DNA of 64,000 nt from Nevskiales bacterium (lineage in GTDB: Bacteria > Pseudomonadota > Gammaproteobacteria > Nevskiales > CAJXLF01). Positions 712-24,657 of this stretch are shown here, piece after piece. How positions within the stretch are numbered: position 1 is the stretch's first letter; the number at the start of each line of letters is the position of its first letter. Both the position numbers and the translations under genes were made by a program. Where the stretch lies: contig JBFJXR010000002.1 of assembly GCA_041622995.1 (NCBI GenBank), forward strand, positions 68,084 to 132,083, read 5' to 3'. The notes under the pieces are model-generated. The model was not told the origin of the DNA. It saw only the letters and a list, made by a program, of their open reading frames with translations, and ran no database searches.

Positions 712-1893
712 ATGCTGAAGAAGAAATTGCCTGTTATGACCGTTATGGCATTGGTTATTGCTGGCTGCGCCAATCTTCCCTCTCAAGGGCCCCGGGTTGC
801 TGATATTCAGCAGGAATATCAATCGGCTAAAGAGCGAAAGTTTGAACTCGTCGAAGTGAATGAGAAAACGATCACCGTGCTTAAGCGACAGTCCTCGGAA
901 GGGCTGTATGCCCGTTTCGGTGATTACCGTCCTTCGCCAAGCCCGACAATCGGCATAGGAGACGGACTGGCAATAACAATCTGGGAGACCGGCCAGAACA
1001 GCATGTTTGGTGGGGGAGGCGGTAAGTTCTCAGGTATAGAGGGCTTGAAAAGCCCAGGCAATAACGACTCTTCACTGCCAATTCTTACAGTTAATAGAGA
1101 AGGCCGGATCACCGTGCCCTATGTTGGGCAGGTAAGTGTTGTGGATCGTACGCCATTTGAAGTTCAATCTGTGATCCAGGAAGGCCTGGCTGGCAAGTCC
1201 GTTGAGCCTCAGGTGCTTGTGACTATTGCTAGGCGTGCATCGTCCGCGGTAACTATTGTTGGTGAGGTGGTTTCCGGTGCGCGTATTCCCCTTGATGAAT
1301 ATAGTTATCGATTGCTTGATGTGATCGCAACGACAGGCGGCATTAAGGTGCCTTTGCATGAGGCTTACGTACAGATAACGCGTTCTGGTAATACGGAAGT
1401 CGTACCGTTTAAGGATATTCTTGAAAATCCTATGGAAAACATACAGATGCACCCGGGGGATGTGGTTGCGGTTTTACGCCGACCACAAACCTATACGGTG
1501 TTTGGCGCAACGGGACGTAACTCACAGATTACGTTTGATACTCCAAAACTAAACTTGCTTGAGGCTCTGGCAAAATCAGGTGGTCTGTTAGACCCATTGG
1601 CAGACCCTAAGGGTGTTTATTTGCTCAGACATGAGCCAGTAGAGGTGGTTAACGAGCTTGTGGATGACCGACAGGCACCCTCGAGACAGGATGGCGTTCC
1701 AGTCATATATCAGATAGATATGAGCAAGGCCGGGAGTTACTTTACCGCGCAATCTCTTGAGGTAGAAAATAGAGATGTGCTCTATGTTTCCAGCGCTTCT
1801 GCAACAGAGCTGCAAAAATTCCTGTTATTGGTTGGTCTGATTTCCCAGCCGATTATTACCGGTGCAACGGTTACCAGTGTGGCTGATAACTAA
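712..1893 (+). CDS. Outer-membrane polysaccharide export lipoprotein (OPX family, CtrA/BexD/Wza-like)
   Basis: 393 aa. Lipoprotein signal peptide (MALVIAGC). Size and sequence pattern match Poly_export plus SLBB domain proteins such as Neisseria CtrA and Haemophilus BexD. It sits in the same locus as KpsE/M/T-type genes. Confidence 0.85.
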   Translation: MLKKKLPVMTVMALVIAGCANLPSQGPRVADIQQEYQSAKERKFELVEVNEKTITVLKRQSSEGLYARFGDYRPSPSPTIGIGDGLAITIWETGQNSMFGGGGGKFSGIEGLKSPGNNDSSLPILTVNREGRITVPYVGQVSVVDRTPFEVQSVIQEGLAGKSVEPQVLVTIARRASSAVTIVGEVVSGARIPLDEYSYRLLDVIATTGGIKVPLHEAYVQITRSGNTEVVPFKDILENPMENIQMHPGDVVAVLRRPQTYTVFGATGRNSQITFDTPKLNLLEALAKSGGLLDPLADPKGVYLLRHEPVEVVNELVDDRQAPSRQDGVPVIYQIDMSKAGSYFTAQSLEVENRDVLYVSSASATELQKFLLLVGLISQPIITGATVTSVADN

Positions 1894-1954: not shown

Positions 1955-4900
1955 ATGACTTTTATTTCTTATGCACAGAATTATGAAGACGTAACACTTT
2001 GGCGTGCGTTGAAGCATGTCAAAAATGGCACTTATATTGATGTGGGTGCGCAACATCCTGAGGAGTGTTCAGTAACAAAAGCGTTTTACGATTCTGGTTG
2101 GACCGGTATAAATGTAGAGCCAGTAAAGCAGTGGTTTAAACTTATAAAGGAGAGCAGGCCTAAAGACATAAATTTAAATATTGCCTTAGCAGATAAAGTT
2201 GAAGCTAAAAGAACTTTATTTGAAGTTGAAGGCACAGGCATGTCAACGTGCAATCGTAAATACGCAGATATGCACGAAAAAGATGGTTTTAAAGTCAAAA
2301 AAATATTAGTGCCTACCTCAACTTTATCCGAATTGTGCGAAAAGTATATCTCGGATGAAATTCATTTCCTGAAAATAGACGTAGAAGGCGCTGAGAAAGC
2401 AGTGCTCGAAGGAGCGGACTTCTCAAAGTATCGACCATGGGTGATTTTAATTGAAGCAACTGAACCAAATAGCCCAATTAGTGCACATAAAAATTGGGAA
2501 GATATTTTGCTTAAGAATAATTATAAATTCGTATGGTTTGATGGGTTGAATCGCTTTTATGTGTCTGGCGAAAAAAGAAAAGAATTGGCGAAGCTGATTG
2601 CGCAGCCGCCCAACATTTACGATGAATTTACGCCTAATACCCAAAATGTCTATTTAAAAAATATAAAAGAATTAACTAATAAAATCGAAAGTCTTTCATG
2701 TGAGCTTACCGCACTTGAAAGCCAGAAAATTAGTATTTCAGATGAATTAGAATTGACCCACCAAACAAGTCATAGACTGTTATTAGAAAAGCAGCAGCTC
2801 GAGGCTGATTTATCCCAAGTTAATACTGTGCTTAATAACTATATTGCACTTTGGGAAAATTCTCAGAATGAAGTTAAAGGGCTTTATGAAACGAGAGGGG
2901 AATTAAGTACTCATATTTCTTACCTCGAAAATGAAAAAAATGAATTGATTAGAAAAACTAAAAAAACTGCAATTGAAATTTCGCAATTAGTAGAAAATTT
3001 AGAGGTTGCAAAGAATGAGGGGGATAAAGCTAAGTTGAAATGCGAGGAACTGAGTTCGCAGCTTTCAATATTAGAAGGTCAGCATTCTGAGTTAATACAG
3101 CAAAATAATTTAAATCGACAGCATATTGAGTACATAGACCCAAAGTATTCTTTATTGGAAGATGAGCATGTAAGGCAAGTTGCACAAGAGCAACTCTATA
3201 AAAGACATATTGCTTATATCGAAGCCAAACTATTAAAAATTGAAAATAGCAGTTCCTGGAAGTTAGTTAAGCCGTTCAGAGCAGGGAAACGTCGTTATAG
3301 AAAGGACACTAAGAAAATACGTAAGGCGCTGAAAAGGTTTTATGTAAAAGTATTCAGGCCGTTAAGTAAAAACGATGGTGTGAAGAGGACTGAATTTAAA
3401 GTAATTGATCGAGGAAATCTGAATCTGCCGAACACTGATACGGATTCGATACAATACGCGTTATCCGTAGGGCAAAGAATTATTTACTACTATGTGGATC
3501 ACACTTTAGATTGCCCGGTTAATACAGGTGTACAACGAGTAACGCGTAATCTGGCAACTAAGTTGATCGATAGTGGTGAGAAAATAGTATTTGTGAAGTG
3601 GGATGCGGAACTTAATAAAATAATTCTTCTAAATAGAAATGACCTAGATAATCTTGAAAAATGGCAAGGTCCTAAACTTGGATTTGAAGATAAAGCAATA
3701 TATCCGGCTAAAGGTGAAAAAGTAGAGATATCACAAGAGCATATTTATGACGAGGGACATTGGCTTTTAGTGCCAGAAGTACCATTCATAACCTTTCATC
3801 CTGAGCCGGTAACTTTAAACTTAATATTGGCTGCTAAGGTAGCAGGGCTACGCTCGGCATTTGTTTTTTACGATGCTATACCTCTTAAACGCCCAGAGTT
3901 TGTTGATATCGCTCCTGTTCACGAGGAGTATATGCAGCACTTGCTCCTGGCCGACCTTATCTTTCCAATTTCTGACTTTTCAGCAAACGACCTCCATGCG
4001 TTCTTTAAATATAGACTGGGAGCCGATAATTCGTCAGTTCCAAAGATAAAAAGTATACGGCTACCCGCGGAATCATTGTTTGCTAAAAGAGTAAGTGAGC
4101 CACTTCCTAAGCGGGAAAAGTTGATTCTATCTGTAGGCACTCTGGATAGACGTAAAAATCAACTCGCACTGGTTAGAGCCTTTTTGCATTGCATGGATAA
4201 AGGACCAGATATGGGTTGGAAACTCATATTGGTTGGGAGTGTTCATGATGATATTAAGGATGAATTGCATAACCTTATAAAGGACAACAAAGCAATAGAA
4301 CTGCGCAAAGATGTGGGAGATGATGAGTTAGAGAATCTGTATGAAGATTGTTCATTTACCGTCTTCCCTTCTGTTGAAGAGGGTTTTGGATTGCCAATTC
4401 TTGAAAGTCTTTGGCATGGCAAACCTTGTATTTGTGCAAGCTTTGGCGCAATGGCTGAAGTCGCAGTGGGTGGGGGTTGTATTCAGGTTGACGTTAATAA
4501 TGAAAGTAAAATTGCAAACGCCGTGGGACAATTGATTAATAATCCTAAGAAGCTTGAAAAGCTTTCTATAGAAGCAGTAGAAAGGCAGCTTTCAAGTTGG
4601 GCTGACTATGCTAAAGAGGTGTCTCAGCTGCTTGATACCACTTCTGATGCACGCTCCAGGATTGGAACAATATATTATTTGGTGGAGCATACTTTTAGTT
4701 TTGCTCATAACACAGGGATTCAACGTGTAGTAAGGAGTTTGGCTAAAGGATTGCTTGAATCTGGTTACCAATTACAAGCTGTTAAATGGAATAGCGAAAC
4801 TGGTAAATTCTATTCGCCGACTATAGATGAGTTATCCCATTTATCAAAGTGGAATGGTCCTGATGTAAACCTCTGGAAAATCGGTGAGCTGCCAGAAAGA

Positions 4901-6943
4901 TTTTCAATAAAAGATTGGCTTTTGATACCAGAGCTTACGGTTTATTCTGGAGCACATGATCTTAAGAAGCTTAAGGCCTCTACAGATGAAGTAGGGCTTC
5001 GAGTCGCATGGATATTTTATGATGCGATTCCATGGAAAATGTCTGATATTTATCCCCAACACTGGGGCGATGCTCACGCAGAATACATGAGGGCATTGAA
5101 TACTTTTGATCTGGTTCTGGCAATTTCACGACACAGCAGAAATGATCTGAAGGAATACTTGAAAACTACCGGTTGTAGAATGCCAGAAGTTGATCGCAGA
5201 ATCCTTGCTTGTCAGCTTCCAGGCGAATTTTCACACATTAAAAGAATTACTGAAGTTAAAAATGATGTTGATGACAAGGTTAGAATATTGTGCGTAGGAT
5301 CTGTGGAGTTAAGGAAAAACCAGACCACATTAATAAACGCATTTGACTTGGTTAACAAGAGCACGAAAAAAAATATTGAATTAGTAATAGCAGGTGGGTG
5401 TTACCTTCCAGAAGAATATATACAACCATTTAGGGATCTCGTGTCATCGACTGCCGGAGTGACTTGGATCGAATCCCCTGATGACAAGCAACTAAGTGAG
5501 TTATATGAATGTAGTGATTTTAGCGTTTATCCGTCCGTTGAAGAAGGTTTTGGTTTGCCAATTCTTGAGAGTCTTTGGCATTGTCGTCCTTCAATTTGTC
5601 ATAACAAAGGGGCAATGGCAGAAGTAGCAGAAGGTGGTGGATGTCTCACTGCGGACGTCACTGACGTTGACGCACTAGCAGAAGCTATTTCGACTCTAGT
5701 TGACAATAAAAGTAAAAGACTGGAACTTGCAAAGCATGCCAGCAAGATGACATTCCGTAGTTGGAAAGAGTATGCGAACGATGTCGTCTATAGGATGACC
5801 AATTCTGCTGTATTTAAAGTACCCAATAATGATCTGACCAACGTTTCTCTACCTGCTACAGCTTCTGCATTCAGCAAGAAATTTATCAATACTGATCAAA
5901 TGCCATTGTTGTCAATTTGCATATCTACATATAACCGTGCTCCTTGGTTGAAAGTAAGCTTGAGAAACTTGGAAAGGCTAATAGGTGAGGGCGAAGATGG
6001 TATTGAAGTAGTTGTTTGTGACAATGCCTCAACTGACAACACTTCTGAAATTGTAAAGCCTTACCTGTCACGTAAGGATTTTCATTACCATAGAAATAAA
6101 GTCAATGTTGGAATGTTGGGTAATTTAAGTGTTACAGCAAATAAAGCCAGAGGTAAATATGTCTGGATTCTCGGAGATGATGATTTGGTTTTACCAGGTG
6201 CTATCGAAAGGATTTTGCACACAATTAAGAGAAACAAAGACTTAGCACTCGTATATTTGAATTATTCGTATACACGAGAAGATGCGCCAGATTCTGTCGA
6301 GAACCTGGATAGCTTTCTACAAAAAGGAATTCCAATAGTTGCACCAGAGGAAGATTTCTATGGGTCAGTTGCTGAATGTTCAGTTAGATCAGAAAACTTC
6401 TTCACGGCAATATATTGTTTGGTATTTAGGCGAGATCACGCGATAAAAGCCTATTCGCAGAATACGGATGGACGACCATTCAGCACTATGCTTACCTGTA
6501 TACCAACAACTTATCACGTACTTAATGAAATGATGGACTTGCCTGCTGCTTGGATAGGTGAGCCGCAAGTTGTTATTAATATGAATGTTTCCTGGCTTAA
6601 ATATGCGTCTCTTTGGATATTGGAGAGATTCCCGGAAGTTTATGATCGAGCTGAGATTATGGGCGCAGACCCCAAGAGTGTGGATAAATGGCGAATAAAT
6701 TACATACCTCACATAAAAGACCAGTTTGCAGGAATATTTGAGAATGACCCTGAAGAAAACGCTATTTACTTCAATCCAAAAAAACTGGTTACAAGATATA
6801 AGCACCTTGAGGAATTCAGAGCGGAGTTTCCTTATTTAATAGATATATATAAGCGTGCCCATCAGGCTGGAAAGATAGGGGCGGAACTTCCTGTCTCACA
6901 AGTATTTCCCGCACTCAACGTTGAATCCAGAAGCGAGGGTTAA
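1955..6943 (+). CDS. Multidomain polysaccharide assembly protein. Approximate domain spans: FkbM-type methyltransferase 1955-2600, coiled coil 2650-3245, GT4 module 1 3470-4650, GT4 module 2 4655-5800, GT2 domain 5897-6600, followed by a C-terminal extension.
   Basis: 1662-aa ORF. The N-terminus (QNYEDV...YIDVGA...FLKIDVEGAEKAVL) is FkbM-like. About 200 aa are heptad-rich and Glu/Leu/Gln/Asn-rich (KNIKELTNKIESLSCELTALESQK...EAKLLKIENSSSW). Two GT4 cores each carry EEGFGLPILESLWH. The GT2 signature is LSICISTYNR...VCDNASTDNT...LGDDD. Confidence 0.85.
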   Translation: MTFISYAQNYEDVTLWRALKHVKNGTYIDVGAQHPEECSVTKAFYDSGWTGINVEPVKQWFKLIKESRPKDINLNIALADKVEAKRTLFEVEGTGMSTCNRKYADMHEKDGFKVKKILVPTSTLSELCEKYISDEIHFLKIDVEGAEKAVLEGADFSKYRPWVILIEATEPNSPISAHKNWEDILLKNNYKFVWFDGLNRFYVSGEKRKELAKLIAQPPNIYDEFTPNTQNVYLKNIKELTNKIESLSCELTALESQKISISDELELTHQTSHRLLLEKQQLEADLSQVNTVLNNYIALWENSQNEVKGLYETRGELSTHISYLENEKNELIRKTKKTAIEISQLVENLEVAKNEGDKAKLKCEELSSQLSILEGQHSELIQQNNLNRQHIEYIDPKYSLLEDEHVRQVAQEQLYKRHIAYIEAKLLKIENSSSWKLVKPFRAGKRRYRKDTKKIRKALKRFYVKVFRPLSKNDGVKRTEFKVIDRGNLNLPNTDTDSIQYALSVGQRIIYYYVDHTLDCPVNTGVQRVTRNLATKLIDSGEKIVFVKWDAELNKIILLNRNDLDNLEKWQGPKLGFEDKAIYPAKGEKVEISQEHIYDEGHWLLVPEVPFITFHPEPVTLNLILAAKVAGLRSAFVFYDAIPLKRPEFVDIAPVHEEYMQHLLLADLIFPISDFSANDLHAFFKYRLGADNSSVPKIKSIRLPAESLFAKRVSEPLPKREKLILSVGTLDRRKNQLALVRAFLHCMDKGPDMGWKLILVGSVHDDIKDELHNLIKDNKAIELRKDVGDDELENLYEDCSFTVFPSVEEGFGLPILESLWHGKPCICASFGAMAEVAVGGGCIQVDVNNESKIANAVGQLINNPKKLEKLSIEAVERQLSSWADYAKEVSQLLDTTSDARSRIGTIYYLVEHTFSFAHNTGIQRVVRSLAKGLLESGYQLQAVKWNSETGKFYSPTIDELSHLSKWNGPDVNLWKIGELPERFSIKDWLLIPELTVYSGAHDLKKLKASTDEVGLRVAWIFYDAIPWKMSDIYPQHWGDAHAEYMRALNTFDLVLAISRHSRNDLKEYLKTTGCRMPEVDRRILACQLPGEFSHIKRITEVKNDVDDKVRILCVGSVELRKNQTTLINAFDLVNKSTKKNIELVIAGGCYLPEEYIQPFRDLVSSTAGVTWIESPDDKQLSELYECSDFSVYPSVEEGFGLPILESLWHCRPSICHNKGAMAEVAEGGGCLTADVTDVDALAEAISTLVDNKSKRLELAKHASKMTFRSWKEYANDVVYRMTNSAVFKVPNNDLTNVSLPATASAFSKKFINTDQMPLLSICISTYNRAPWLKVSLRNLERLIGEGEDGIEVVVCDNASTDNTSEIVKPYLSRKDFHYHRNKVNVGMLGNLSVTANKARGKYVWILGDDDLVLPGAIERILHTIKRNKDLALVYLNYSYTREDAPDSVENLDSFLQKGIPIVAPEEDFYGSVAECSVRSENFFTAIYCLVFRRDHAIKAYSQNTDGRPFSTMLTCIPTTYHVLNEMMDLPAAWIGEPQVVINMNVSWLKYASLWILERFPEVYDRAEIMGADPKSVDKWRINYIPHIKDQFAGIFENDPEENAIYFNPKKLVTRYKHLEEFRAEFPYLIDIYKRAHQAGKIGAELPVSQVFPALNVESRSEG

Positions 6944-6944
6944 A

Positions 6945-8197: not shown

Positions 8198-9234
<1,037 letters not shown>

Positions 9235-9235
<1 letters not shown>

Positions 9236-10126: not shown

Positions 10127-10777
10127 TTACATGCTCCGAGAATATACTTCGATTGCCTCATGTATATTGCCAAAGTAACGAACGCCTTTATTCTCCACAA
10201 TTAAGGCGGAGTCACAAGTTTGTGCAAGAAGCCCAAGTTCGTGAGATGCGACTATTAGGGCTTTATTCTGTGATCTATCAAACAGTGCCTCCATGCATTT
10301 TGAGTGGAACCTTTGGTCTCCCACGAGCATAACTTCGTCAATTAAATAACAATCAAAGTCGATAGCTATGGACAGTGCGAAGGCTAATCGTGCTCGCATG
10401 CCAGAGGAATACGTTTTTACAGGCTTGTACAAATGAGCACCTAGTTCTGAGAAATCGTCAACATATTCGTATAAATCATCAAATTTTGTATCGTAAATTC
10501 TGGCAATAAAACGAATATTGTCAATCCCGGTGAGGCTTCCCTGAAATCCGCCAGAAAAACCTAAGGGCCACGATACTGACATTTTGTGGTGGATATAACC
10601 ACTACTTGGCAATTCAACCTTGCCAAGCATACGGATCAGAGTTGATTTCCCAGCGCCGTTTCGGCCAATGAGTGCCAGATGATGCCCCTTAGGAACCTGG
10701 AAGTTAATATTTTCGAGTATTGAATATTTTTTACCGTGTATAAAATAATGCTTATACAGTTCGTTTACTTCTATCAT
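10127..10777 (-). CDS. kpsT: Capsule/polysaccharide export ABC transporter, ATP-binding protein (KpsT/CtrD/BexA type)
   Basis: 216 aa. Walker A GRNGAGKST, SWPLGFSGGFQGSLTG, signature YSSGMRARLAF, and Walker B YLIDEV. Collinear with E. coli KpsT. No C-terminal carbohydrate-binding extension. Confidence 0.92.
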   Translation of the reverse strand: MIEVNELYKHYFIHGKKYSILENINFQVPKGHHLALIGRNGAGKSTLIRMLGKVELPSSGYIHHKMSVSWPLGFSGGFQGSLTGIDNIRFIARIYDTKFDDLYEYVDDFSELGAHLYKPVKTYSSGMRARLAFALSIAIDFDCYLIDEVMLVGDQRFHSKCMEALFDRSQNKALIVASHELGLLAQTCDSALIVENKGVRYFGNIHEAIEVYSRSM

Positions 10778-11577
10778 TCCATCTCAATATACTTTCTAAC
10801 ATTAACCGAGAGAATCAGGCCAATTAGGATCAAAAAAAGACAGGTATATGTCACATAAGGAATGTCATAGTGCATATGTAGAGCCGGGCCAAATTGTCCG
10901 GCTCGTATGAGTTCAAATCCATGCACGCTGGGAAGTAATAAGGCTACCTTCTGTGCGGGATAAGGAAGCCAGTCCACAAGATAAAATGCACCAGATAGGG
11001 GAGCCATGATATATAGCAATGGTGACGTAAGTTTTTCTATCCAATCAAACTGCTCACTTAAACATGAAACTATTAATGCAGTGCCTATACTAAATAGAAT
11101 CAGATATATCCAACCGAGGTAGAACAAGCCGTAATTGACTGGTGGATCGTAAATTCCAACCAGATAAAACCCGGAACAGATGACAATGAATGCCATAATC
11201 GTTCCGTAGACCTCCAGCATTATTCTTGCTACAAGTATATCCATCAGGCCAATTTGCTTATGGTAGAGCAGTCCGGCATTTGCCTGAAAGCAATTTGTGG
11301 AGCGGGAAACGGAATGCCTCCACATGGTTAACGGTGCATAGCCAGTTAAGACAAACGCAGCGACAGGCACACTATTGTCATTAGGAGATCTTACTGAATA
11401 CCACAGAAAGACAACTATAAGCGTAAATAGAAATGGTTCCCCTACTACCCAAAGTGCCCCGATATTATCCCTACCGAATCGTGTGTGCACTTCACGAATC
11501 ATTAGCGCACTAATGATTTTTATTCGATACCTTAAGTCCAGAATCAAAGATAATGGGGCAATAAATACGTTACTCAT
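10774..11577 (-). CDS. kpsM: Capsule/polysaccharide export ABC transporter permease (KpsM/CtrC/BexB type, ABC-2)
   Basis: 267 aa and multi-pass hydrophobic. Its ORF overlaps kpsT by 4 nt. Length and position match KpsM. Confidence 0.88.
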   Translation of the reverse strand: MSNVFIAPLSLILDLRYRIKIISALMIREVHTRFGRDNIGALWVVGEPFLFTLIVVFLWYSVRSPNDNSVPVAAFVLTGYAPLTMWRHSVSRSTNCFQANAGLLYHKQIGLMDILVARIMLEVYGTIMAFIVICSGFYLVGIYDPPVNYGLFYLGWIYLILFSIGTALIVSCLSEQFDWIEKLTSPLLYIMAPLSGAFYLVDWLPYPAQKVALLLPSVHGFELIRAGQFGPALHMHYDIPYVTYTCLFLILIGLILSVNVRKYIEME

Positions 11578-11592
11578 TAGATTATTTTGACG

Positions 11593-12777
11593 CTATCTCT
11601 GAGAATGTTCACGTAAGCCAGTCATTAATAATCGGGAAATTGAATACATCAGAAATAGACTCATAAAAATGATGCAGATAGATTTGAATTTTTGAGGGTA
11701 TTTGGCTTCATCTGGAACGTTGGGTTCAACTACTCGATCGAGATAAATTAATTGTCTCCGGGCTTCCGCTTTGGCGGAAGCTAACGATCCGACCGCAGAT
11801 GCCAGCTGCTTCGCTGCAAACTCCTGGCGCAGGACTAATTCTTCGTACATCCCAACTTTTGGCGCAAGTGATTTTTCATCGCCAGTGAGTTTAGCCATTT
11901 CATTATTATATTGACGTTCTATAGAGTTTATGTGAGCTTTTAAACCCCGTATCATCGGATTAGATGGAGAGGACTGCTGCATTTCACTCAAACGAGCCCG
12001 GCTCATGATCAGTTCTACTCGAAGTTTTGCCAATGATTCGGCAAATGCTTCTGTGGCTGATTTGGGGTCGAGCACCTCTTCCCTGTTTCTATAATTCAGC
12101 ATTTTTAACTGAATCTCTGTAACTTTCTCTTCTGCAATTTGAACGTCTTTTTCAGCATCGCCTATTGCATTATTTCTGGATCTTTCATTTAGCCTGTTAA
12201 CAAGCCCCTCACTCTCGTCAAGTAAAATATTTACAATCAATTGTGCGTCATCGGGAGAGAAGGCCCTTGCCGTTAAAGTTGTAATGCCCGTGGCTGAATC
12301 AAATACTATGGATATATTTTTCGAATAATATTCATATAAACCTTCAAATGAATTATCGTTAAGAATATTTGGATATTGCGAGAGAAAGTCAGCATCCTTG
12401 TTGCCATAAATATTTTTTAAATCAATGTGTTTCTGTAATGATTTAATGCCGTCTCGAGAAGTAATGAATTCATGAACAATAAAGAGACTGTCATGAGTTG
12501 GCGAAAGGCCTGCTTGCTGAAAAAAATTGGCGAACATGCTCATCTGTCGCTGCTGTGAACTGCGAACAATAAACCGGCCTTCAGACTCGTACATGTCAGT
12601 GGCAATAAAAGAATAATAAATTATGGCAAGTAGTGTGGGCAGTATTAAGAACAGGATTGCCCCAGAATTTTCGGTAATTGCTTTTAATAATGCGTTAGGC
12701 CGCTTTGGTTTTGCGGGTACAATCGTGTGAACTTCTAGGTTTTCTGTCGTCTGAATATCTATAGTATCTGTGTTCAC
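11593..12777 (-). CDS. kpsE: Capsule polysaccharide export inner-membrane protein (KpsE/CtrB/BexC, PCP-3 family)
   Basis: 394 aa. An N-terminal TM segment (ILFLILPTLLAIIYY), a long periplasmic coiled region and a C-terminal hydrophobic helix. Located upstream of kpsM-kpsT. Confidence 0.85.
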   Translation of the reverse strand: MNTDTIDIQTTENLEVHTIVPAKPKRPNALLKAITENSGAILFLILPTLLAIIYYSFIATDMYESEGRFIVRSSQQRQMSMFANFFQQAGLSPTHDSLFIVHEFITSRDGIKSLQKHIDLKNIYGNKDADFLSQYPNILNDNSFEGLYEYYSKNISIVFDSATGITTLTARAFSPDDAQLIVNILLDESEGLVNRLNERSRNNAIGDAEKDVQIAEEKVTEIQLKMLNYRNREEVLDPKSATEAFAESLAKLRVELIMSRARLSEMQQSSPSNPMIRGLKAHINSIERQYNNEMAKLTGDEKSLAPKVGMYEELVLRQEFAAKQLASAVGSLASAKAEARRQLIYLDRVVEPNVPDEAKYPQKFKSICIIFMSLFLMYSISRLLMTGLREHSQR

Positions 12778-12985: not shown

Positions 12986-14293
12986 TTGATGGCAAACAAT
13001 AAACCAATTATATTTTTTGACGCTAGTCGGCTATTCAATCGTTTGCTTTCATCTACACCAGCTGGAATTGATCGTGTGGATTTGGCATATGCAAAAAAAT
13101 TCTTGCATGATCAAGAATACACAGTGGCATATATTGTTTATGGGAAAAAAGGACACTTTATATTTCCCAGATTAATAGTCATATTATTTTTGTGGGTTGC
13201 AGAATTCTCTTCAAGAAACCGGGATGCCAAGTTTAGTAGTAGGGTTGCCTTTCCACTAGTAACATCACTCGTTGCTTATTTCCTTCGCCCAAGTAATTTT
13301 CTCTGGATACTTAAGTTTTTTAGATGGATGAGTGTATTGGGTCTGCCACGTCATCCCGAAAGCATCATTTCAAAATCTACTCTCGTTGCGGTCTATATTA
13401 ATGTTTCTCACGGAAAGTTAACAAAATACAGGCGCTTTTCCTGGTTAAAAGATAATAATGTATCGGGTGTTTTTTTTGTACATGACCTGATTCCAATACT
13501 AAATCCAGAGTTTTGTACTGATAAGCAGGCTGAGAGACACCGTGCCCGTTTGGAAATGATTTCTCAGCATGCCGATTTGATTATTTCAATATCTGAAAAC
13601 ACAAAAGAAGAATTAGTGAGATATTTTTCGAAGGAAAAACTGTCATTGCCTGAAATTCAAGTGCTTCCACTTGCAGTTGATGGTATTTGTCATGCAAATG
13701 AAGTGAAGCCGGTAATTGAAAATCCAACTACGTATTTTGTAATTTTATCTACTATTGAGCCTCGAAAAAATCACCTAATGTTGCTGAAAATCTGGAAAAG
13801 GTTGGTTAAGGATTTTGGGCTTGCAGCGCCAAAATTAGTAATCATTGGTCGACGCGGGTGGAAGAATGACAAGGTATTCAGGTTGTTGGAGGATAAGGAG
13901 CTAGAGCCATATGTACATGAATACAATGACCTATCCGACGGCCAGGTTAAAAGTCTTTTGCTGGGTTCAAGGGCACTGATCTCGCCTTCTTTTGTTGAAG
14001 GATACGGGCTTCCTGTTGTTGAGGCATTAAGCTTAAAAGTGCCGGTTATCGCATCTGATATTCCTTCGCATCGTGAAATAGGAAAATCTGTTCCAGATTT
14101 CATTGATCCATATGATGCAGAATCTTGGTACGCTCATATCGTAGCTTATACAGATTCTGAGAATACGATGAGGGCTTCTCAACTGGAGCGCATGAGTGAT
14201 TTCAGCATCATAAGTTGGAAGGAGCATATGCTGACATTTGATAAGCTCTTGAAAGAACTTGTAGTCAAAAAATCAGTAGTTTCTAAAGCATGA
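12986..14293 (+). CDS. Glycosyltransferase family 4 (GT-B, retaining type)
   Basis: 435 aa. The C-terminal half has EPRKNH, GRRGW and SFVEGYGLPVVEALSLKVPVIASDIPSHREI (the EX7E region). The N-terminal half contains hydrophobic stretches. The start is either TTG at 12986 or ATG at 12989. Confidence 0.8.
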   Translation: MMANNKPIIFFDASRLFNRLLSSTPAGIDRVDLAYAKKFLHDQEYTVAYIVYGKKGHFIFPRLIVILFLWVAEFSSRNRDAKFSSRVAFPLVTSLVAYFLRPSNFLWILKFFRWMSVLGLPRHPESIISKSTLVAVYINVSHGKLTKYRRFSWLKDNNVSGVFFVHDLIPILNPEFCTDKQAERHRARLEMISQHADLIISISENTKEELVRYFSKEKLSLPEIQVLPLAVDGICHANEVKPVIENPTTYFVILSTIEPRKNHLMLLKIWKRLVKDFGLAAPKLVIIGRRGWKNDKVFRLLEDKELEPYVHEYNDLSDGQVKSLLLGSRALISPSFVEGYGLPVVEALSLKVPVIASDIPSHREIGKSVPDFIDPYDAESWYAHIVAYTDSENTMRASQLERMSDFSIISWKEHMLTFDKLLKELVVKKSVVSKA

Positions 14294-15186
14294 AAAGCCT
14301 GACGCCGGAAATCAGGGCAGAGTTAGAGGCTGTTATTGGTAATATTCAGCAGGTTACACTTTTGCACAAACGCTGGATTCGACGTCGCGAATCCTACAGA
14401 CCAGTGTCTAAAAGATCTCCCAAGGTTTACTTGTTGTCGTCAGAGTCTGGTGTGCGGTATAAATTATTGATCGGTAATGAGGGCGGCAGTCGTATCAGCC
14501 GAATCAGGCATTATTCAGAACAATGTGCTGGTTTCTCATTCTTCCCTGAGTTGGCTTCAAGCGGTGATGACTGGTTACTGATTGAATATATTGAAGGAAG
14601 TGAGCCCGATTTTTCTTCGAAAGGCTTTGCCTATGATATAGGCATCTCACTTGCACAAATGCATCTCCTAAATAGGAGGCCATGTGATGCTTCTAAGATT
14701 CAAGAGCATTTGCGAAAGGATATCCATCAGCTTCAAAAATACGGGCACCTGACTACTAATAAAGATGTGGCTCTTGTATGGAACGTTTTTGAGAGGCTGA
14801 ATTTGGGAGTCTGTCCCACCAGCCTGGATTATTTTGATGTCAAGCCGAGCAACTTTATACGCGCCACCAATGGACAGATATATTTTGTCGACCTGGGTGC
14901 GATAGGAGAAAACTGGCCTACGGGCCAATTTCTATTCGGTAGCTTGCATTACGATAAACTGAAAATGAGGTCGTTTGCTGAAGGATACCTTTCAGGTGGT
15001 GGAGATCAGGCTATATTAGATCGTGGCTTACCGTTCAGGGTTCTTCACTGCTTATGGTTGGCTGCACACTATTACAGAAGGGCTGCTGAAATACCGTTCT
15101 ACGTAGCACCGATGAAATATGGTTTTCAGATAATGGGTAGAAGACTGATTAATAAAAGTCTTCACCTTGCTTCGGATTGTATGTAG
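14290..15186 (+). CDS. Eukaryotic-protein-kinase-like kinase, candidate glycan (chain-end) kinase
   Basis: 298 aa. Hinge LIEYIEGSEP. Catalytic loop FDVKPSNFI (D-x-K-P-x-N, nt 14836-14853). DFG-equivalent FVDLG (nt 14890-14898). A lysine candidate lies in VRYKLLIG. The start overlaps the GT4 stop (ATGA). Confidence 0.65.
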   Translation: MKSLTPEIRAELEAVIGNIQQVTLLHKRWIRRRESYRPVSKRSPKVYLLSSESGVRYKLLIGNEGGSRISRIRHYSEQCAGFSFFPELASSGDDWLLIEYIEGSEPDFSSKGFAYDIGISLAQMHLLNRRPCDASKIQEHLRKDIHQLQKYGHLTTNKDVALVWNVFERLNLGVCPTSLDYFDVKPSNFIRATNGQIYFVDLGAIGENWPTGQFLFGSLHYDKLKMRSFAEGYLSGGGDQAILDRGLPFRVLHCLWLAAHYYRRAAEIPFYVAPMKYGFQIMGRRLINKSLHLASDCM

Positions 15187-15253: not shown

Positions 15254-16210
15254 ATGCAAGAACAACCACGGGTATTTGTTGCTGGCCATCGTGGGATGGT
15301 TGGATCTGGAATTGTCCGTGCATTGAAGAGTCGAGGTTATGAATCAATTTTAACGGCTCCTCATTCCGAACTGGATCTTCAAGACCAACGTCAAGTTCAA
15401 AATTATTTTGCAAAGGAAAAACCAGACCAGGTATATATTGCGGCTGCTAGGGTAGGTGGCATATATGCAAATAATACTTTCCCAGCACAATTCATTTATG
15501 AAAACCTGATGATTCAGTGCAATATTGTCGATGCGGCATGGCGTGAAGGGGTAGAGAAATTGCTTTTTCTTGGCTCCAGTTGCATTTATCCCAGAGAAGC
15601 ATCCCAGCCCATTACCGAAGATTCGCTACTTACGGGAAAACTAGAGCCTACAAATGAGCCCTATGCCGTGGCCAAGATAGCCGGTATTAAACTTTGTGAG
15701 TCCTATAACCGCCAGTATGGATGCGATTTTCGGAGCGTTATGCCTACAAATTTATATGGTCCTGGTGATAACTATGACCCGGAATACTCGCATGTCATCC
15801 CGGCATTATTGCGTCGGTTCCATGAGGCAAAAGTAGAAGATAAGGATGAAGTGGTTATTTGGGGTACTGGCAAGGCAAGGCGTGAATTTCTACATGTTGA
15901 TGATATGGTTGATGCATCCGTATTTACAATGGAACTGGATTGCGAAAAATACAAAGACCATACCTTAGAGATGCAATCGCATATTAATGTTGGTACAGGT
16001 ACGGATACTACTATTGCTGATCTTGCCAATTTATTGAAGTCCACAGTAGGTTATGAAGGTGAGATCAAGTTTGATACATCAAAACCGGACGGACCACCCC
16101 GTAAACTACTGGATGTGAGTCGCTTGAGTTCTTTAGGTTGGCAATCCCGAATCAATCTTGAAGAGGGGTTGAAACTGGCCTATCAGGATTATATTAATGA
16201 GCATGTTTAA
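15254..16210 (+). CDS. fcl: GDP-L-fucose synthase (GDP-4-keto-6-deoxy-D-mannose 3,5-epimerase/4-reductase)
   Basis: 318 aa. [31 protein letters not shown] and [10 protein letters not shown] are the characteristic Fcl/WcaG pattern. Confidence 0.92.
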
Positions 16211-16365: not shown

Positions 16366-17529
16366 ATGAATGCAGAAAAATTTATTAATTTCCTCTATCT
16401 ACTAATTTTTGAAAGAGAAGCCGATGCGGATGGCTTGAAAAATTGGAGTAATGAATTGCGGGCGGGGAAGCTCCCCATTGAGATTTTTAATATATTTTTG
16501 AATTCGGAAGAGTTTAAACAAAAATCAGTTACTCATCGCTACTTTAGAAATAATGTGGATGAGAATCAATTACTTTTTAAAGGACGCAACCGAACAGAGA
16601 TACAAAAAGAATTCGATGACAGTGTTGATTTGCTTGATTTGATAAATTTGGAGGATGATTGGGCTCGTTTTGCCGAAATAATCAGAAAAGACCATTTGCG
16701 GGCTAAATCAGATTCAGAATTTGCTTATTTTTTAGAGACCCTCTACCTGGAAGAAGATCGAGTTAAATCATTTGACCGGTTCCTTAAAAGCTATGAGTTG
16801 AAATATTCGATTGAAGTATTAAGGGCGATGAATGTTGAGAACGATGCTGCTATCTGTGAGGTAGGAGGGGGGAACGGCGCATTTTCCTGGGGGCTGATGA
16901 AAAAGGGTTTCAATAATTTACATTTATTCGAGCCGAACGGCGATTTTATTACAGGTACTGGATACCTGAAATCCAGAGAAGATAGTCAATCGCTCAAAGT
17001 TTATAACGATTTGCATGCTTGGCACGACGACTCATTATTGTATGAAACCATTATTAGTAAGGCGTGTATTCACCATTTCGGCAATATAAGTATGGTTGCC
17101 GGCTCCATCAGGCAAAAAATGAAGATGGGTGGTTTGTGGTTTGCATTTAGAGAGTGGTTCGCTGACAGCCCCAGTGAGTTGGCAAACCTAATGACGAATC
17201 ACCCCTATTGCCAGCAGTACAAATTGTATGAATGGCCCTCTCCGGCGTCAATCTATGTGGAATCTTTTGAAATGGTGGGATTAGAATTAATAGCAATTGT
17301 TCCTGAGGGATATGCAGATAATTCCATTGCTACGCATCATGAAATAGAACCATCTGAGGTCGCCAAGAGTTTTACTGAAGAAATTAACGATACATTACGA
17401 AATAATCCCGAGGAAACAGTTAATAAATTCTGGAAAGAGTATTTTTCTAGTAAAACAGGTTCTTCATTTGATGAAAAATATTCAAAGCCCCAGGTGATGA
17501 TATTTCGTAAGGTGCCAGTTTCTATTTAA
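16366..17529 (+). CDS. DUF4214-domain plus class I SAM-dependent methyltransferase fusion
   Basis: 387 aa. The N-terminus FINFLYLLIFEREADADGLKNWSNELRAGKLPIEIFNIFLNSEEFK fits the DUF4214 consensus. The central segment has SAM motif I, ICEVGGGNGAFSW. Confidence 0.65.
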   Translation: MNAEKFINFLYLLIFEREADADGLKNWSNELRAGKLPIEIFNIFLNSEEFKQKSVTHRYFRNNVDENQLLFKGRNRTEIQKEFDDSVDLLDLINLEDDWARFAEIIRKDHLRAKSDSEFAYFLETLYLEEDRVKSFDRFLKSYELKYSIEVLRAMNVENDAAICEVGGGNGAFSWGLMKKGFNNLHLFEPNGDFITGTGYLKSREDSQSLKVYNDLHAWHDDSLLYETIISKACIHHFGNISMVAGSIRQKMKMGGLWFAFREWFADSPSELANLMTNHPYCQQYKLYEWPSPASIYVESFEMVGLELIAIVPEGYADNSIATHHEIEPSEVAKSFTEEINDTLRNNPEETVNKFWKEYFSSKTGSSFDEKYSKPQVMIFRKVPVSI

Positions 17530-17552: not shown

Positions 17553-18572
17553 CTAATCTTTATGTAGAGCATCTAGATATGGCAGGGCGGTGTTCTCGCC
17601 AGTTTGGTAATCGTGAATTTTGAGCTTTCCAAATGTGAGGTCATTCCAGCCGAACACAAAATGAGCTATAGCCGCTTGTTTTAGTAGTTGCTGTTTATTG
17701 ACGCACTCGTCTGATTTGAAGTAAACCGCATCACCCCACATCAGTTTGCTTCCTTTTTCTGGCCCAGCTAAACGCGAAAATTCTTCTGGCGCCAGCCTTC
17801 TTTGGAATAGCAAGTCGTGAAAATCAAAATTATTATCACGGAGCAAGCAGTCAACATCAGAAAATAGAGGTTGCCTTGAATAAATTTCCTGAAATTCAAC
17901 TTCAGTAAAAATACATAATGTTTTATTTAAGGCATTAATGCCGTTCTCTAATATTTTGTATTCAAAGCCCTGTACATCAAGTTTTAGAAAATCAATACTT
18001 TCAGGTAAATCTATTTCATCTAGACGAGTTGTTTTCATGTCTATTTCGTCAACGGTATACAGATTTATTAGCCCTTCGGTAACGCCCATTATTTTTTTGT
18101 TTATAGGGTACATTGATGATGTCGCATCAATATTATTTACATAAAGTGTTTGTGTTGTGCCATCACCTAATGCCGAAGGTCTTATGGATACATTATTTTC
18201 GCTATTATTTCGCTGAGTAGCTTTTTCTTCCAGAGGTTCAAAACCGATTGTAGTGCCAATTAGACTATGCTCATTTAATGGCGCGTAGATATGTCTTTCT
18301 TCATCAAGTATTTGTGCGCCTATATCGACTACATTTATTGGTTCCAAACCTGCGTCGATTAAGATTGTTTTTATACGTTCGTGGTTGATTTGCGATTGGT
18401 TTTTAGTTTGCTCGAATTCTTTGCATTCTTCCGATCTTGAAATTTCAATATAGATATCTTCAATATTCATACCACTCGTATAAAGAGACTCCCAGTGATC
18501 TAAGCCATTCTGGTCAATATTTCGACCAAGTAGCTGCAAATAAATTGCGTTCAGAACATGTTGTATTTTCAT
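17553..18572 (-). CDS. DUF4214-domain plus FkbM-family methyltransferase fusion
   Basis: 339 aa. The N-terminus [47 protein letters not shown] is DUF4214-like. FkbM motifs VVDIGAQ and [17 protein letters not shown] follow. Confidence 0.7.
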
Positions 18573-24654: not shown

Positions 24655-24657
24655 AGG

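What the first reader, a model, noticed from the sequence alone, without database searches (positions are those of the whole stretch)
14290..15186. Stand-alone eukaryotic-like kinase translationally coupled to a GT4: a candidate glycan-end kinase (split WbdD logic)
**What the sequence shows.** The 298-aa protein carries a protein-kinase catalytic loop FDVKPSNFI, a DFG-like FVDLG and a YIEG hinge. Its ATG overlaps the stop of the upstream GT4 (ATGA). The locus also contains several methyltransferases.

**Established background.** E. coli O9a WbdD terminates mannan chains by phosphorylating the non-reducing end and then methylating the phosphate. It uses fused kinase and methyltransferase domains.

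**Inference.** Here the kinase and methyltransferase functions may be distributed over separate proteins, giving a phospho or methyl-phospho cap.

**An inconsistency to resolve.** The exporter ATPase (KpsT-like, 216 aa) has no C-terminal carbohydrate-binding module of the kind that reads such caps in Wzt proteins. If a cap exists, it is not sensed in the O9a manner.
Basis: partly seen in the sequence, partly recalled or inferred. Interest (0 to 1): 0.6.

Follow-up and report, generated by a model that had tools for sequence, protein, structure and literature searches.

The report
Rare capsule-locus sugar kinase family
The gene encodes a real, catalytically intact kinase from a very rare unnamed family found only in bacterial surface-sugar gene clusters, but the evidence places it near the start or linker of the sugar chain rather than at a WbdD-style end cap.

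Summary
ORF 14290-15186 encodes a 298-aa protein with the stated motifs, and its ATG overlaps the stop of the upstream GT4.

It belongs to a small, divergent family: 66 representatives among 1.84 billion proteins, with no Pfam or NCBIfam model of its own. The catalytic K58, D183, N188 and D201 are conserved. The alignment-based AlphaFold model is confident (pLDDT 94.9) and has an APH/choline-kinase-like fold.

It shows no specific link to WbdD, WaaP or WaaY. It has no fused methyltransferase and no long coiled coil, and the 216-aa KpsT has no carbohydrate-binding module.

Family members occur in KpsMT, MsbA-like ABC and Wzx/Wzy polysaccharide loci. Its nearest clade ("kinB") follows KpsC and a paralogue ("kinA") in three independent loci. 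Homologues of the coupled GT4 lie directly beside KpsC/KpsS-type genes in 5 of 7 contexts. The window itself has no KpsC or KpsS.

The locus already carries a methyltransferase-spacer-polymerase protein of 1662 aa that looks like a canonical terminator.

Best reading: a cytoplasmic glycan kinase acting on the lipid-linked capsule intermediate, probably near the primer or linker. A WbdD-like cap remains a minority possibility. The substrate is unproven.

The parts
14290..15186 (+). 298-aa stand-alone protein-kinase-like (APH/choline-kinase-like) kinase of the 'kinB' clade of a rare unnamed family. Catalytic residues: K58 (14461-14463), D183 (14836-14838), N188 (14851-14853), D201 (14890-14892). 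Hinge YIEG at 14587-14598.
   Evidence: Translation. Family search. Conservation. AlphaFold model pLDDT 94.9. Foldseek matches to APH(2''), choline kinase, LicA and Mph enzymes. Pfam APH 20.8 bits, below the 23.2 cut-off.
14290..14293 (+). ATGA start/stop overlap between the GT4 and the kinase, showing co-transcription and possible translational coupling.
   Evidence: Sequence. Such overlaps occur at 8 gene pairs in this locus.
12989..14293 (+). GT4 glycosyltransferase, 434 aa from the ATG at 12989 (the listed ORF starts at TTG 12986). It belongs to a large family whose members usually lie directly beside KpsC/KpsS-type (PF05159) genes. It is a candidate primer or transition glycosyltransferase.
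   Evidence: Pfam Glycos_transf_1 E = 1.4e-19. More than 4298 homologues, none of the best 120 fused to a kinase. Contexts.
10127..10777 (-). KpsT-like ABC ATPase of 216 aa with no C-terminal carbohydrate-binding module.
   Evidence: ABC_tran is the only Pfam match above its curated cut-off. 60% identical to the ATPase of the L023 wcb-like capsule locus.
10774..11577 (-). KpsM-like ABC-2 permease.
   Evidence: Pfam ABC2_membrane and a weak NCBIfam KpsM hit.
11593..12777 (-). KpsE/CtrB/BexC-family inner-membrane export protein (PCP-3), transcribed divergently from the GT4-kinase operon.
   Evidence: TIGR01010 E = 2.2e-83.
712..1893 (+). KpsD/Wza-like outer-membrane polysaccharide export protein (OPX).
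   Evidence: Pfam Poly_export and SLBB_2. 38% identical to the L023 OPX.
1955..6943 (+). 1662-aa protein with an FkbM methyltransferase (residues 29-192), a heptad-rich coiled-coil-like spacer of about 230 aa (residues about 205-435), two GT4 modules and one GT2 module. It is the likely polymerase with a built-in methyl terminator or ruler. It is context that competes with a terminator role for the kinase.
   Evidence: Pfam domains. Sequence and crude coiled-coil score. No kinase-family domain inside it.
15254..16210 (+). GDP-L-fucose synthase (Fcl), the next gene in the same orientation, 67 bp downstream of the kinase.
   Evidence: NCBIfam NF047922, 515.6 bits, above its cut-off.
16366..17529 (+). 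DUF4214 + class I SAM methyltransferase. It is the nearest candidate if a phosphate were methylated, but it shows no similarity to the WbdD methyltransferase.
   Evidence: Pfam. No PDB sequence hit. No BLAST similarity to WbdD.

Best explanation
The gene encodes an active, ATP-dependent, cytoplasmic sugar (glycan) kinase of a rare, previously undescribed clade of the protein-kinase-like (APH/choline-kinase-like) superfamily. This clade is dedicated to surface-polysaccharide assembly.

In this locus it is co-transcribed with a GT4 that belongs to the glycosyltransferase family normally found beside KpsC/KpsS. The most likely mechanism is this: the GT4 adds a sugar to the lipid-linked capsule intermediate at the inner face of the cytoplasmic membrane. 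The kinase then phosphorylates a hydroxyl of that intermediate. Its basic surface and tail fit an anionic, membrane-bound substrate.

The gene-neighbourhood evidence places this step near the reducing-end primer or linker. That is the junction between the lipid anchor and the serotype-specific polymer, not the non-reducing end.

What is shown: the fold, the intact catalytic residues, the family's restriction to glycan loci, and the KpsC association of both partners. What is inferred: the glycan substrate, the position of the phosphate and its purpose.
For: **Kinase identity.**
- K58, N188 and D201 are invariant and D183 is at least 90% conserved in 38 relatives.
- The model has pLDDT 94.9.
- Foldseek gives probability 1.0 for APH(2''), choline kinase, LicA and macrolide kinases.

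**Restriction to glycan loci.** Eight of the ten distinct contexts with readable flanks, and every long one, are polysaccharide loci:
- KpsMT type: the window, L002, L006 and L007;
- fused ABC exporter type: L011 and L012;
- Wzx or Wzx/Wzy type: L009/L010/L018 and L021.

**No route for a small phosphorylated product.** The nucleotidyltransferases found among the scanned ORFs are ManC and RmlA, both already assigned, and no LicC/LicD-type gene was found.

**Position near the linker.**
- The window protein falls in the kinB clade (E = 1e-48 and 1e-45, against 1e-31 and 1e-33 for kinA).
- KpsC-kinA-kinB recurs in three independent loci. One carries GDP-mannose genes and another carries UDP-ManNAc(3NAc)A-type genes. 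The conserved feature of these loci is therefore the Kdo linker, not the polymer.
- Homologues of the coupled GT4 lie immediately next to a PF05159 gene in 5 of 7 contexts. One of these (L023) has exporter genes 38-60% identical to the window's.

**Charge.** The family is basic, with a median net charge of +11 overall and +6.5 in the last 45 residues.

**Precedent.** In E. coli K-12 the waaG (GT4) stop overlaps the start of the waaP heptose kinase.
Against: - No biochemical data exist for any family member.
- The window has no KpsC or KpsS homologue anywhere in its 64 kb. If a Kdo linker exists here, its genes lie elsewhere.
- The GT4-kinase pairing is seen only in this window. None of 7 GT4-homologue contexts has a kinase, and none of the other kinase contexts has this GT4.
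- The sample of contexts is small.
- Genes next to KpsC can simply be the first serotype-specific genes.
- The best structural matches are small-molecule kinases.
- Two short contigs place family members next to non-glycan genes: MTHFR and HIT in L014, and a phosphodiesterase in L008.
Confidence: 0.45

Rival explanations
1. This is the first reader's reading: a WbdD-like non-reducing-end cap. The kinase phosphorylates the terminal sugar of the growing chain. One of the locus methyltransferases may then methylate the phosphate, which stops polymerisation.
For: - The locus is ABC-transporter-dependent and rich in methyltransferases.
- K. pneumoniae O7 ORF6 shows that a divergent APH/AmiN-like kinase domain can add a methyl-phosphate cap to rhamnose (PMC11231755).
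- AmiN is among the five best PDB sequence matches of the family profile, at E = 7.7e-4.
- The 1662-aa polymerase carries an N-terminal methyltransferase on a coiled-coil-like spacer. That methyltransferase could in principle methylate a phosphate supplied in trans.
Against: - The kinase has no coiled coil and no fused methyltransferase, so a ruler could not position it.
- The only WbdD similarity is the generic catalytic loop, and no WbdD chain is in the Foldseek top 50.
- KpsT has no carbohydrate-binding module.
- The export genes are capsule-type (KpsE and OPX), which recognise the lipid end.
- Family members occur in Wzx/Wzy loci.
- The nearest relatives are fixed beside KpsC regardless of polymer sugars.
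- No methyltransferase partner is conserved across loci.
Confidence: 0.17
2. The protein is a small-molecule or precursor kinase. It would phosphorylate a free sugar at C1 (as NahK and AmgK do) or an alcohol or amine substituent (as LicA does with choline, or an ethanolamine kinase). The product would later be activated and transferred to the polymer.
For: - The top fold matches are aminoglycoside, choline (including LicA), ethanolamine and macrolide kinases.
- The Pfam hits of family members are APH, then ABC1 and Fructosamin_kin.
- One relative lies next to a HIT-family gene and another next to a phosphodiesterase-family gene.
Against: - No unassigned nucleotidyltransferase or cytidylyltransferase, and no LicD or CDP-alcohol-type transferase, was found among the ORFs scanned in the window locus or among the genes called in the KpsC-kinA-kinB loci. 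Nothing there could use such a product.
- The proven glycan kinase of K. pneumoniae O7 also best matches a small-molecule kinase (PMC11231755), so the fold match does not discriminate.
- TM-scores are only 0.5-0.67.
Confidence: 0.18
3. The protein decorates repeat units. It would add phosphate to an internal sugar of every, or many, repeat units as a side group, possibly as a handle for further substitution.
For: - Relatives sit in Wzx/Wzy loci, where only the Und-PP-linked repeat unit is available in the cytoplasm.
- Several relatives co-occur with sulfotransferases, another class of anionic decoration.
Against: - The kinB clade keeps its KpsC-adjacent position in loci with different sugar chemistry.
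- In the window, the large multi-module protein, not the stand-alone GT4, looks like the polymerase. A kinase coupled to the stand-alone GT4 therefore fits a once-per-chain step better.
Confidence: 0.15
4. The protein is a protein kinase or a regulatory (pseudo)kinase that controls capsule expression or the export machinery.
For: - The catalytic loop DVKPSN resembles the Ser/Thr-kinase D-[LIV]-K-P-x-N motif.
- Weak profile hits to eukaryotic protein kinases cover the catalytic-loop region.
Against: - The K and P of that loop are not conserved in the family, and the alignment shows no GxGxxG or APE motif.
- The full-length fold matches are APH/choline-kinase enzymes with their C-terminal helical substrate subdomain.
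- Only 2 of 38 members hit Pfam Pkinase.
Confidence: 0.05

Closest known systems
WbdD kinase domain (E. coli O9a / K. pneumoniae O3 O-antigen terminator)
   Same: - Both are protein-kinase-like enzymes in an ABC-transporter-dependent polysaccharide locus.
- The catalytic loops look alike: DVRPWN in WbdD and DVKPSN here.
- WbdD's kinase also has no dedicated Pfam family and gives the same generic APH/Pkinase/ABC1 hits.
   Different: - WbdD is a 708-aa fusion of methyltransferase, kinase, coiled-coil ruler and membrane/WbdA-binding region. The window protein is a 298-aa single domain.
- Profile similarity is limited to 51 columns around the catalytic loop.
- No WbdD chain is among the 50 best fold matches.
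- The partner exporter lacks the carbohydrate-binding module that reads the cap.
K. pneumoniae O7 ORF6 N-terminal methyltransferase-kinase terminator (PMC11231755)
   Same: - Both are divergent kinases unrecognisable by standard annotation. The closest solved relative of the O7 domain is the APH-type amicoumacin kinase AmiN, which is also among the top five PDB sequence matches here.
- Both belong to deoxyhexose (rhamnose-type) polymer loci with ABC export.
   Different: - The O7 kinase is a 223-aa domain fused to a methyltransferase, a carbohydrate-binding module, a coiled coil and GT2 polymerase modules.
- Here the kinase stands alone, and the methyltransferase-spacer-polymerase protein of the locus contains no kinase domain.
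WaaG-WaaP (and WaaY, KdkA) of LPS core assembly
   Same: - A GT4 gene overlaps the start of a kinase-fold sugar kinase gene (waaG/waaP in E. coli K-12).
- The kinase phosphorylates a sugar of a lipid-linked glycan at the cytoplasmic face. The modification lies in the conserved inner part of the glycan, not at the chain end.
- KdkA phosphorylates Kdo immediately after a Kdo transferase acts (established knowledge).
   Different: - None of 38 family members hit PF06293 (Kdo/WaaP) or PF06176 (WaaY).
- hhalign against WaaP finds nothing, and against WaaY only 46 columns.
- The context here is capsule export, not the LPS core.
APH / choline-kinase family small-molecule kinases (APH(2''), LicA, ChoK, Mph, SrkA)
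   Same: - These are the best structural matches: Foldseek E = 7e-10 to 6e-8 and TM 0.5-0.67.
- APH is the best Pfam match.
- The bilobal fold with a helical C-terminal substrate subdomain aligns over the full length with SrkA.
   Different: - The window protein is below the APH gathering score (20.8 against 23.2 bits).
- Identity is only 9-16%.
- The genomic context is exclusively polysaccharide assembly, and nothing downstream could use a phosphorylated small molecule.
Transition transferases of group 2 capsules (CpsA/CpsC of A. pleuropneumoniae; PMC11666461)
   Same: Both would work at the junction between the conserved KpsS/KpsC glycolipid and the serotype-specific polymer. The gene neighbourhoods place the GT4 family and the kinB clade at that step.
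   Different: - CpsA and CpsC are a TagF-like glycerol-phosphate transferase and a nucleotidyltransferase-fold polymerase.
- That paper's main text never uses the words 'kinase' or 'phosphorylat-'.
- Membership is a hypothesis only.

Membership tests
WbdD-type chain terminators | Kinase and SAM methyltransferase on one polypeptide | tested here: not met
   The protein is a 298-aa single kinase-fold domain with no methyltransferase domain.
WbdD-type chain terminators | Long coiled-coil molecular ruler with a membrane- and polymerase-binding C-terminus | tested here: not met
   The model is a compact bilobal fold whose longest C-terminal helix spans residues 273-297. The coiled-coil-like spacer of the locus lies in the separate 1662-aa protein.
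WbdD-type chain terminators | Specific sequence or structural relatedness to the WbdD kinase domain | tested here: not met
   hhalign of the family profile against WbdD gives 72% probability over 51 columns, covering only the catalytic loop and DxG. No WbdD chain is in the Foldseek PDB top 50 or in the best 60 PDB sequence matches.
WbdD-type chain terminators | Cap read by a C-terminal carbohydrate-binding module on the ABC ATPase (Wzt) | tested here: not met
   The ATPase is 216 aa, and ABC_tran is its only Pfam match above the curated cut-off.
WbdD-type chain terminators | Phosphorylates the non-reducing terminal sugar and thereby sets chain length | not testable with these tools
   Needs enzymology and polymer end-group analysis.
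Protein-kinase-like superfamily, APH/choline-kinase branch (Pfam PF01636) | Bilobal kinase fold | tested here: met
   The model has pLDDT 94.9. Foldseek gives probability 1.0 for APH(2''), ChoK, LicA and Mph, with TM 0.5-0.67.
Protein-kinase-like superfamily, APH/choline-kinase branch (Pfam PF01636) | Catalytic Lys, D-x4-N catalytic loop and metal-binding D-x-G | tested here: met
   K58, N188 and D201 are invariant and D183 is at least 90% conserved in 38 sequences.
Protein-kinase-like superfamily, APH/choline-kinase branch (Pfam PF01636) | Score above the Pfam gathering threshold | tested here: not met
   The window protein scores 20.8 bits against a cut-off of 23.2. 19 of 38 relatives hit APH at E <= 0.01, the best at 1.5e-9. 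The protein is a distant relative, not a curated member.
LPS sugar kinases WaaP/KdkA (PF06293) and WaaY (PF06176) | Match to the family HMM | tested here: not met
   None of 38 family members match. The positive controls WaaP and WaaY match at 5e-69 and 1.5e-134.
K. pneumoniae O7 ORF6-type methyltransferase-kinase terminators | Kinase domain embedded in a methyltransferase-kinase-CBM-coiled-coil-GT2 protein | tested here: not met
   The kinase stands alone. The 1662-aa methyltransferase-spacer-glycosyltransferase protein has no kinase-family domain.
K. pneumoniae O7 ORF6-type methyltransferase-kinase terminators | Sequence relatedness of the kinase domains | not tested
The only indirect link is that both resemble AmiN.
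Group 2-type (KpsMT) ABC-transporter capsule system (locus context) | KpsM, KpsT, KpsE (PCP-3) and KpsD/OPX export genes | tested here: met
   The genes are 38-60% identical to those of a wcb-like capsule locus.
Group 2-type (KpsMT) ABC-transporter capsule system (locus context) | KpsS and KpsC beta-Kdo transferases (PF05159) in the locus | tested here: not met
   No hit in the 64-kb window by tblastn, by phmmer with 12 PF05159 proteins, or by a profile built from them. They may lie elsewhere in the genome.

The most novel reading that the evidence does not exclude
The kinA/kinB kinases and the KpsC-adjacent GT4 family may be unrecognised components of the step that joins the conserved lipid anchor or linker to the serotype-specific polymer in ABC-transporter capsules.

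On this reading, phosphorylation of the last linker sugar or the first primer sugar would act as the hand-over or stop signal. It could end KpsC-type linker extension or license the polymerase. Fam20B does something comparable when it phosphorylates xylose in the proteoglycan linkage region.

In this window, which lacks KpsC and KpsS, the GT4-kinase pair would build an alternative, phosphorylated primer.
Probability: 0.2. Interest if true: 0.75.

Novelty: new variant of a known kind. Interest (0 to 1): 0.45.

Why it matters
Kinase-fold sugar kinases are known in LPS core assembly (WaaP, WaaY, KdkA) and in O-antigen termination (WbdD, O7 ORF6). None is known in KpsMT-type capsule assembly.

Two questions about ABC-transporter capsules are explicitly open in the literature (PMC11666461, PMC12220298):
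- how the conserved glycolipid is joined to the variable polymer;
- what sets chain length.

Three findings bear on them:
- a rare kinase family is fixed next to KpsC in three loci;
- here it is coupled to a GT4 that is itself a KpsC neighbour elsewhere;
- this capsule-export locus also carries a ruler-type methyltransferase-polymerase but no KpsC or KpsS.

Together they give concrete, clonable candidates for testing both questions. If the enzyme is only a side-group or precursor kinase, the finding is a routine new family annotation.

Tried and rejected
- **Single-sequence AlphaFold** gave pLDDT 34.5 and was unusable. It was replaced by the alignment-based model.
- **The word-indexed homologue search** found only the protein itself, and only 3 proteins when given the family profile. 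Only the exhaustive HMMER search exposed the family.
- **Scans of the GTDB species genomes** with the protein and with a subfamily alignment found no relative. The family was therefore not found in that collection with the patterns used, and the source organism was not identified.
- **The plasmid collection** holds no homologue of the kinase.
- **hhalign of the family profile against single sequences** of WbdD, WaaP, WaaY and SrkA gave only generic or low-probability matches. These are poorly calibrated and cannot rank the families.
- **A conserved methyltransferase partner** across kinase-bearing loci, or a WbdD-like methyltransferase in the window, was not found. The only similarities were the generic SAM-binding similarity of the CMAS-like protein and of one L012 methyltransferase.
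- **A GT4-kinase fusion (Rosetta stone)** was absent from the best 120 GT4 homologues.
- **The N-terminal extensions** of the 407-462-aa family members showed no recognisable domain.
- **Promoter and terminator scans** around the operon were at or below the shuffled expectation.
- **An amphipathic C-terminal anchor helix** was not flagged in the window protein (hydrophobic moment 0.42). Only the basic charge is a family-wide feature.


Full report
**1. The observation**

ORF 14290-15186 (+) is real. It starts at the first possible start codon and encodes 298 aa. The translation contains FDVKPSNFI (residues 182-190), FVDLG (residues 199-203) and YIEG (residues 100-103).

The ATG at 14290 overlaps the TGA of the upstream GT4 ORF as ATGA. 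That GT4 most likely starts at the ATG at 12989. Such overlaps are frequent in this locus: eight same-strand pairs overlap by 1-23 nt, including unrelated pairs. The overlap therefore shows co-transcription and nothing more.

**2. The locus**

Positions 712-27147 form a low-GC island (37-43% through its first 20 kb and 43-48% beyond, against mostly 50-55% in the core genes). It encodes the following:

| Coordinates | Product |
|---|---|
| 712-1893 | outer-membrane export protein (OPX) |
| 1955-6943 | 1662-aa multidomain protein |
| 6921-8183 | C-methyltransferase |
| 8198-9235 | Gmd |
| 9235-10101 | short-chain dehydrogenase/reductase |
| 10127-12777 (-) | KpsT-, KpsM- and KpsE-like export proteins |
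| 12989-14293 | GT4 |
| 14290-15186 | the kinase |
| 15254-16210 | Fcl |
| 16366-17529, 17553-18572 | two DUF4214 methyltransferases |
| 18569-21363 | PMM and ManC |
| 21403-22629 | CMAS-like methyltransferase |
| 22875-23714 | FkbM methyltransferase |
| 23743-27147 | RmlDCAB |

This is a capsule-type ABC export system for a methylated deoxyhexose polymer.

The 1662-aa protein has an FkbM methyltransferase, then about 230 residues of heptad-rich, coiled-coil-like sequence, then two GT4 modules and one GT2 module. That is the architecture of ruler-type terminator-polymerases such as WbbB and O7 ORF6 (PMC11231755). The coiled coil is inferred from sequence composition only.

No KpsC or KpsS (PF05159) homologue exists anywhere in the 64 kb.

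**3. The protein and its family**

Standard annotation fails on this protein:
- Pfam gives only APH at 20.8 bits, below the 23.2 cut-off.
- NCBIfam gives nothing meaningful.
- PDB sequence search gives nothing.
- The word-indexed search of 5.8 billion proteins finds only the protein itself.

An exhaustive HMMER scan of 1.84 billion cluster representatives finds 66 relatives at E <= 1e-3, 39 at E <= 1e-10 and only 3 at E <= 1e-30, the protein itself among them. Almost all are stand-alone proteins of about 290 aa.

In an alignment of 38 of them (18-31% identity to the query), K58, N188, D201 and F229 are invariant. D183, P44, P86, G103, F113 and Y233 are at least 90% conserved. These are the ATP-binding lysine, the D-x4-N catalytic loop and the metal-binding D-x-G, so the enzymes should be active.

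With this alignment AlphaFold gives pLDDT 94.9 and pTM 0.90. Foldseek against the PDB returns APH(2''), choline and ethanolamine kinases, LicA, macrolide kinases and YihE. Probability is 1.0, TM is 0.5-0.67 and identity is 9-16%.

Family members hit Pfam APH (19 of 38), ABC1 (10), Fructosamin_kin (3) and Pkinase (2). None hits the LPS-kinase families.

The K and P of DVKPSN are not conserved in the family, and there is no GxGxxG or APE motif. 'APH/choline-kinase-like' describes the protein better than 'eukaryotic-like protein kinase'.

The family is basic, with a median net charge of +11 overall and +6.5 in the last 45 residues.

**4. Test of the WbdD idea**

I fetched WbdD from E. coli HS (O9), and WaaP, WaaY and SrkA from K-12. 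The results against the family profile were:

| Protein | hhalign result |
|---|---|
| WbdD | 72% probability, 51 columns around the catalytic loop |
| WaaY | 68% probability, 46 columns |
| WaaP | nothing |
| SrkA | full-length alignment, low probability |

WbdD's own kinase domain has no dedicated Pfam family. No WbdD chain is in the Foldseek top 50.

Further points against the WbdD idea:
- The window protein has no methyltransferase and no coiled coil.
- The exporter has no carbohydrate-binding module.
- No methyltransferase is conserved next to family members, and none in the window resembles WbdD's beyond generic SAM-binding similarity.

The experimentally proven methyl-phosphate terminator kinase of K. 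pneumoniae O7 also best matches an APH-type enzyme, AmiN (PMC11231755). AmiN is also among the five best PDB sequence matches here.

**5. Where the family lives**

I read ten distinct contexts.

*Nearest relatives.* P0002 and P0003 are 30-33% identical to the window protein. They lie in KpsMT capsule loci directly after KpsC and a paralogous kinase, giving the order KpsC-kinA-kinB with overlapping genes. A third, independent instance is on L007. The window protein belongs to the kinB clade. L002 carries GDP-mannose genes, whereas L006 carries UDP-ManNAc(3NAc)A-type genes. The module is thus conserved across different polymer chemistries.

*Other members.*
- Some sit with a PF05159 protein of about 500 aa, nonulosonic-acid genes and a conserved unknown protein of about 360 aa. 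These loci have either a fused ABC exporter or Wzx/Wzy.
- Others are wedged between a sulfotransferase and Wzx, or lie near a methyltransferase, a sulfotransferase and a deacetylase.
- Two short contigs are uninformative or non-glycan.

*What this shows.* The presence of family members in Wzx/Wzy loci shows that the family is not intrinsically a chain terminator.

**6. The coupled GT4**

The GT4 has more than 4298 homologues at E <= 1e-10. None of the best 120 is fused to a kinase.

In 5 of 7 readable contexts the homologue lies immediately beside a PF05159 KpsC/KpsS-type gene:
- metagenomic locus L023;
- a Paraburkholderia plasmid;
- a Phyllobacterium plasmid;
- a Novosphingobium plasmid;
- a Polaromonas plasmid.

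In a sixth context, an E. fergusonii plasmid, KpsC is 5 kb away. In the seventh, a Methylobacterium plasmid, no PF05159 gene lies within 6 kb.

In L023 the order is KpsC-like, GT4, OPX, KpsE, KpsM, KpsT. Its exporter proteins are 38-60% identical to the window's. From memory, this resembles the wcbA-wcbB arrangement of the Burkholderia pseudomallei capsule locus.

So both partners of the window's GT4-kinase pair are, elsewhere, neighbours of the enzyme that builds the poly-Kdo linker.

**7. Interpretation**

*Shown:*
- the protein is an intact kinase-fold enzyme;
- its family is rare and restricted to glycan loci;
- both the kinB clade and the GT4 family associate with KpsC.

*Inferred:*
- it phosphorylates a sugar of the lipid-linked intermediate made by the GT4 at the membrane;
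- it probably acts at the primer or linker end.

The precedent is waaG-waaP, a GT4 gene whose stop overlaps the start of a heptose kinase gene. KdkA acting after the Kdo transferase is a second precedent, from established knowledge.

The nature of the junction between the conserved glycolipid and the polymer, and the control of chain length in ABC capsules, are stated open questions (PMC11666461; PMC12220298).

*Against this reading:*
- the window has no KpsC or KpsS;
- the GT4-kinase pairing is unique to this window;
- the sample is small;
- there is no biochemistry.

*Rivals:* a WbdD-like end cap, a repeat-unit decoration, a small-molecule or precursor kinase, and a protein kinase. I rank them as given in the rival list.

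**8. Verdict**

- **Observation:** confirmed.
partly supported. The protein is a kinase of polysaccharide assembly, but the split-WbdD cap logic is not supported and is partly contradicted.
- **Novelty:** a new, unnamed family within a known kind, the kinase-fold sugar kinases of glycan assembly, in a context (KpsMT capsules, next to KpsC) where no kinase is known.
- **Interest:** moderate. It would rise substantially if the linker or primer role were shown.

Noticed in passing
window 1955-6943 (+): This 1662-aa protein has an FkbM methyltransferase, a heptad-rich coiled-coil-like spacer of about 230 aa (residues about 205-435), two GT4 modules and one GT2 module. That is a ruler-type terminator-polymerase architecture typical of O-antigen systems. 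Here it sits in a capsule-type KpsMTE/OPX export locus.
   Followed up: partly
window 1-64000: The window has no KpsC or KpsS (PF05159) homologue, although KpsM, KpsT, KpsE and an OPX are present. Either the linker genes lie elsewhere or this exporter handles a polymer without a poly-Kdo linker, as the Vi system does.
   Followed up: yes
L002 9120-10915; L006 3518-5308; L007 580-1568: A conserved three-gene module, KpsC then kinase paralogue A then kinase paralogue B, has overlapping genes. It occurs in three independent capsule loci with different sugar-supply genes.
   Followed up: partly
L009 6971-12016; L011 791-10861; L012 8442-15678: A second conserved set comprises a PF05159 protein of about 500 aa, a kinase-family member and an unknown protein of about 360 aa with no Pfam match. 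It occurs in loci that make nonulosonic acids, some with Wzx/Wzy and some with a fused ABC exporter.
   Followed up: partly
L023 6908-13106; L025, L026, L028, L030: Homologues of the window GT4 lie immediately beside KpsC/KpsS-type genes in 5 of 7 contexts. The L023 exporter genes are 38-60% identical to the window's. This GT4 family may be a conserved primer or transition glycosyltransferase.
   Followed up: partly
window 16366-17529 (+) and 17553-18572 (-): Two convergent methyltransferases, one Methyltransf_23 and one FkbM, each carry an N-terminal DUF4214 of about 50 aa. This may be a shared docking module.
   Followed up: no
window 6921-8183 (+): A sugar C-methyltransferase (Methyltransf_13/14) overlaps the end of the 1662-aa ORF by 23 nt. 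It lies next to Gmd and a short-chain dehydrogenase/reductase, which predicts a C-methylated 6-deoxyhexose in the polymer.
   Followed up: no
window 21403-22629 (-): A CMAS-family (cyclopropane-fatty-acid-synthase-like) methyltransferase lies inside the polysaccharide locus, between ManC and an FkbM methyltransferase. It is the only locus methyltransferase with BLAST similarity to the WbdD methyltransferase domain, and that similarity is generic SAM-binding (E = 2e-8 over 104 aa).
   Followed up: partly
window 712-31360: The polysaccharide locus is a low-GC island (37-43% through its first 20 kb and 43-48% beyond, against mostly 50-55% for the core genes). It ends near tRNA-Val (31284-31360), which suggests horizontal acquisition.
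   Followed up: no
window 27216-31217: An FG-GAP/ASPIC repeat protein (27216-29192, -) lies close to a 466-aa protein (29817-31217, +) that carries a Peptidase_S74 (endosialidase intramolecular chaperone) domain. The latter is a tailspike-like feature next to a capsule locus.
   Followed up: no
window 46610-47452 (+): The release-factor ORF begins at position 61 of the PCRF domain. This fits the usual programmed +1 frameshift of prfB (RF2) rather than a truncation.
   Followed up: no
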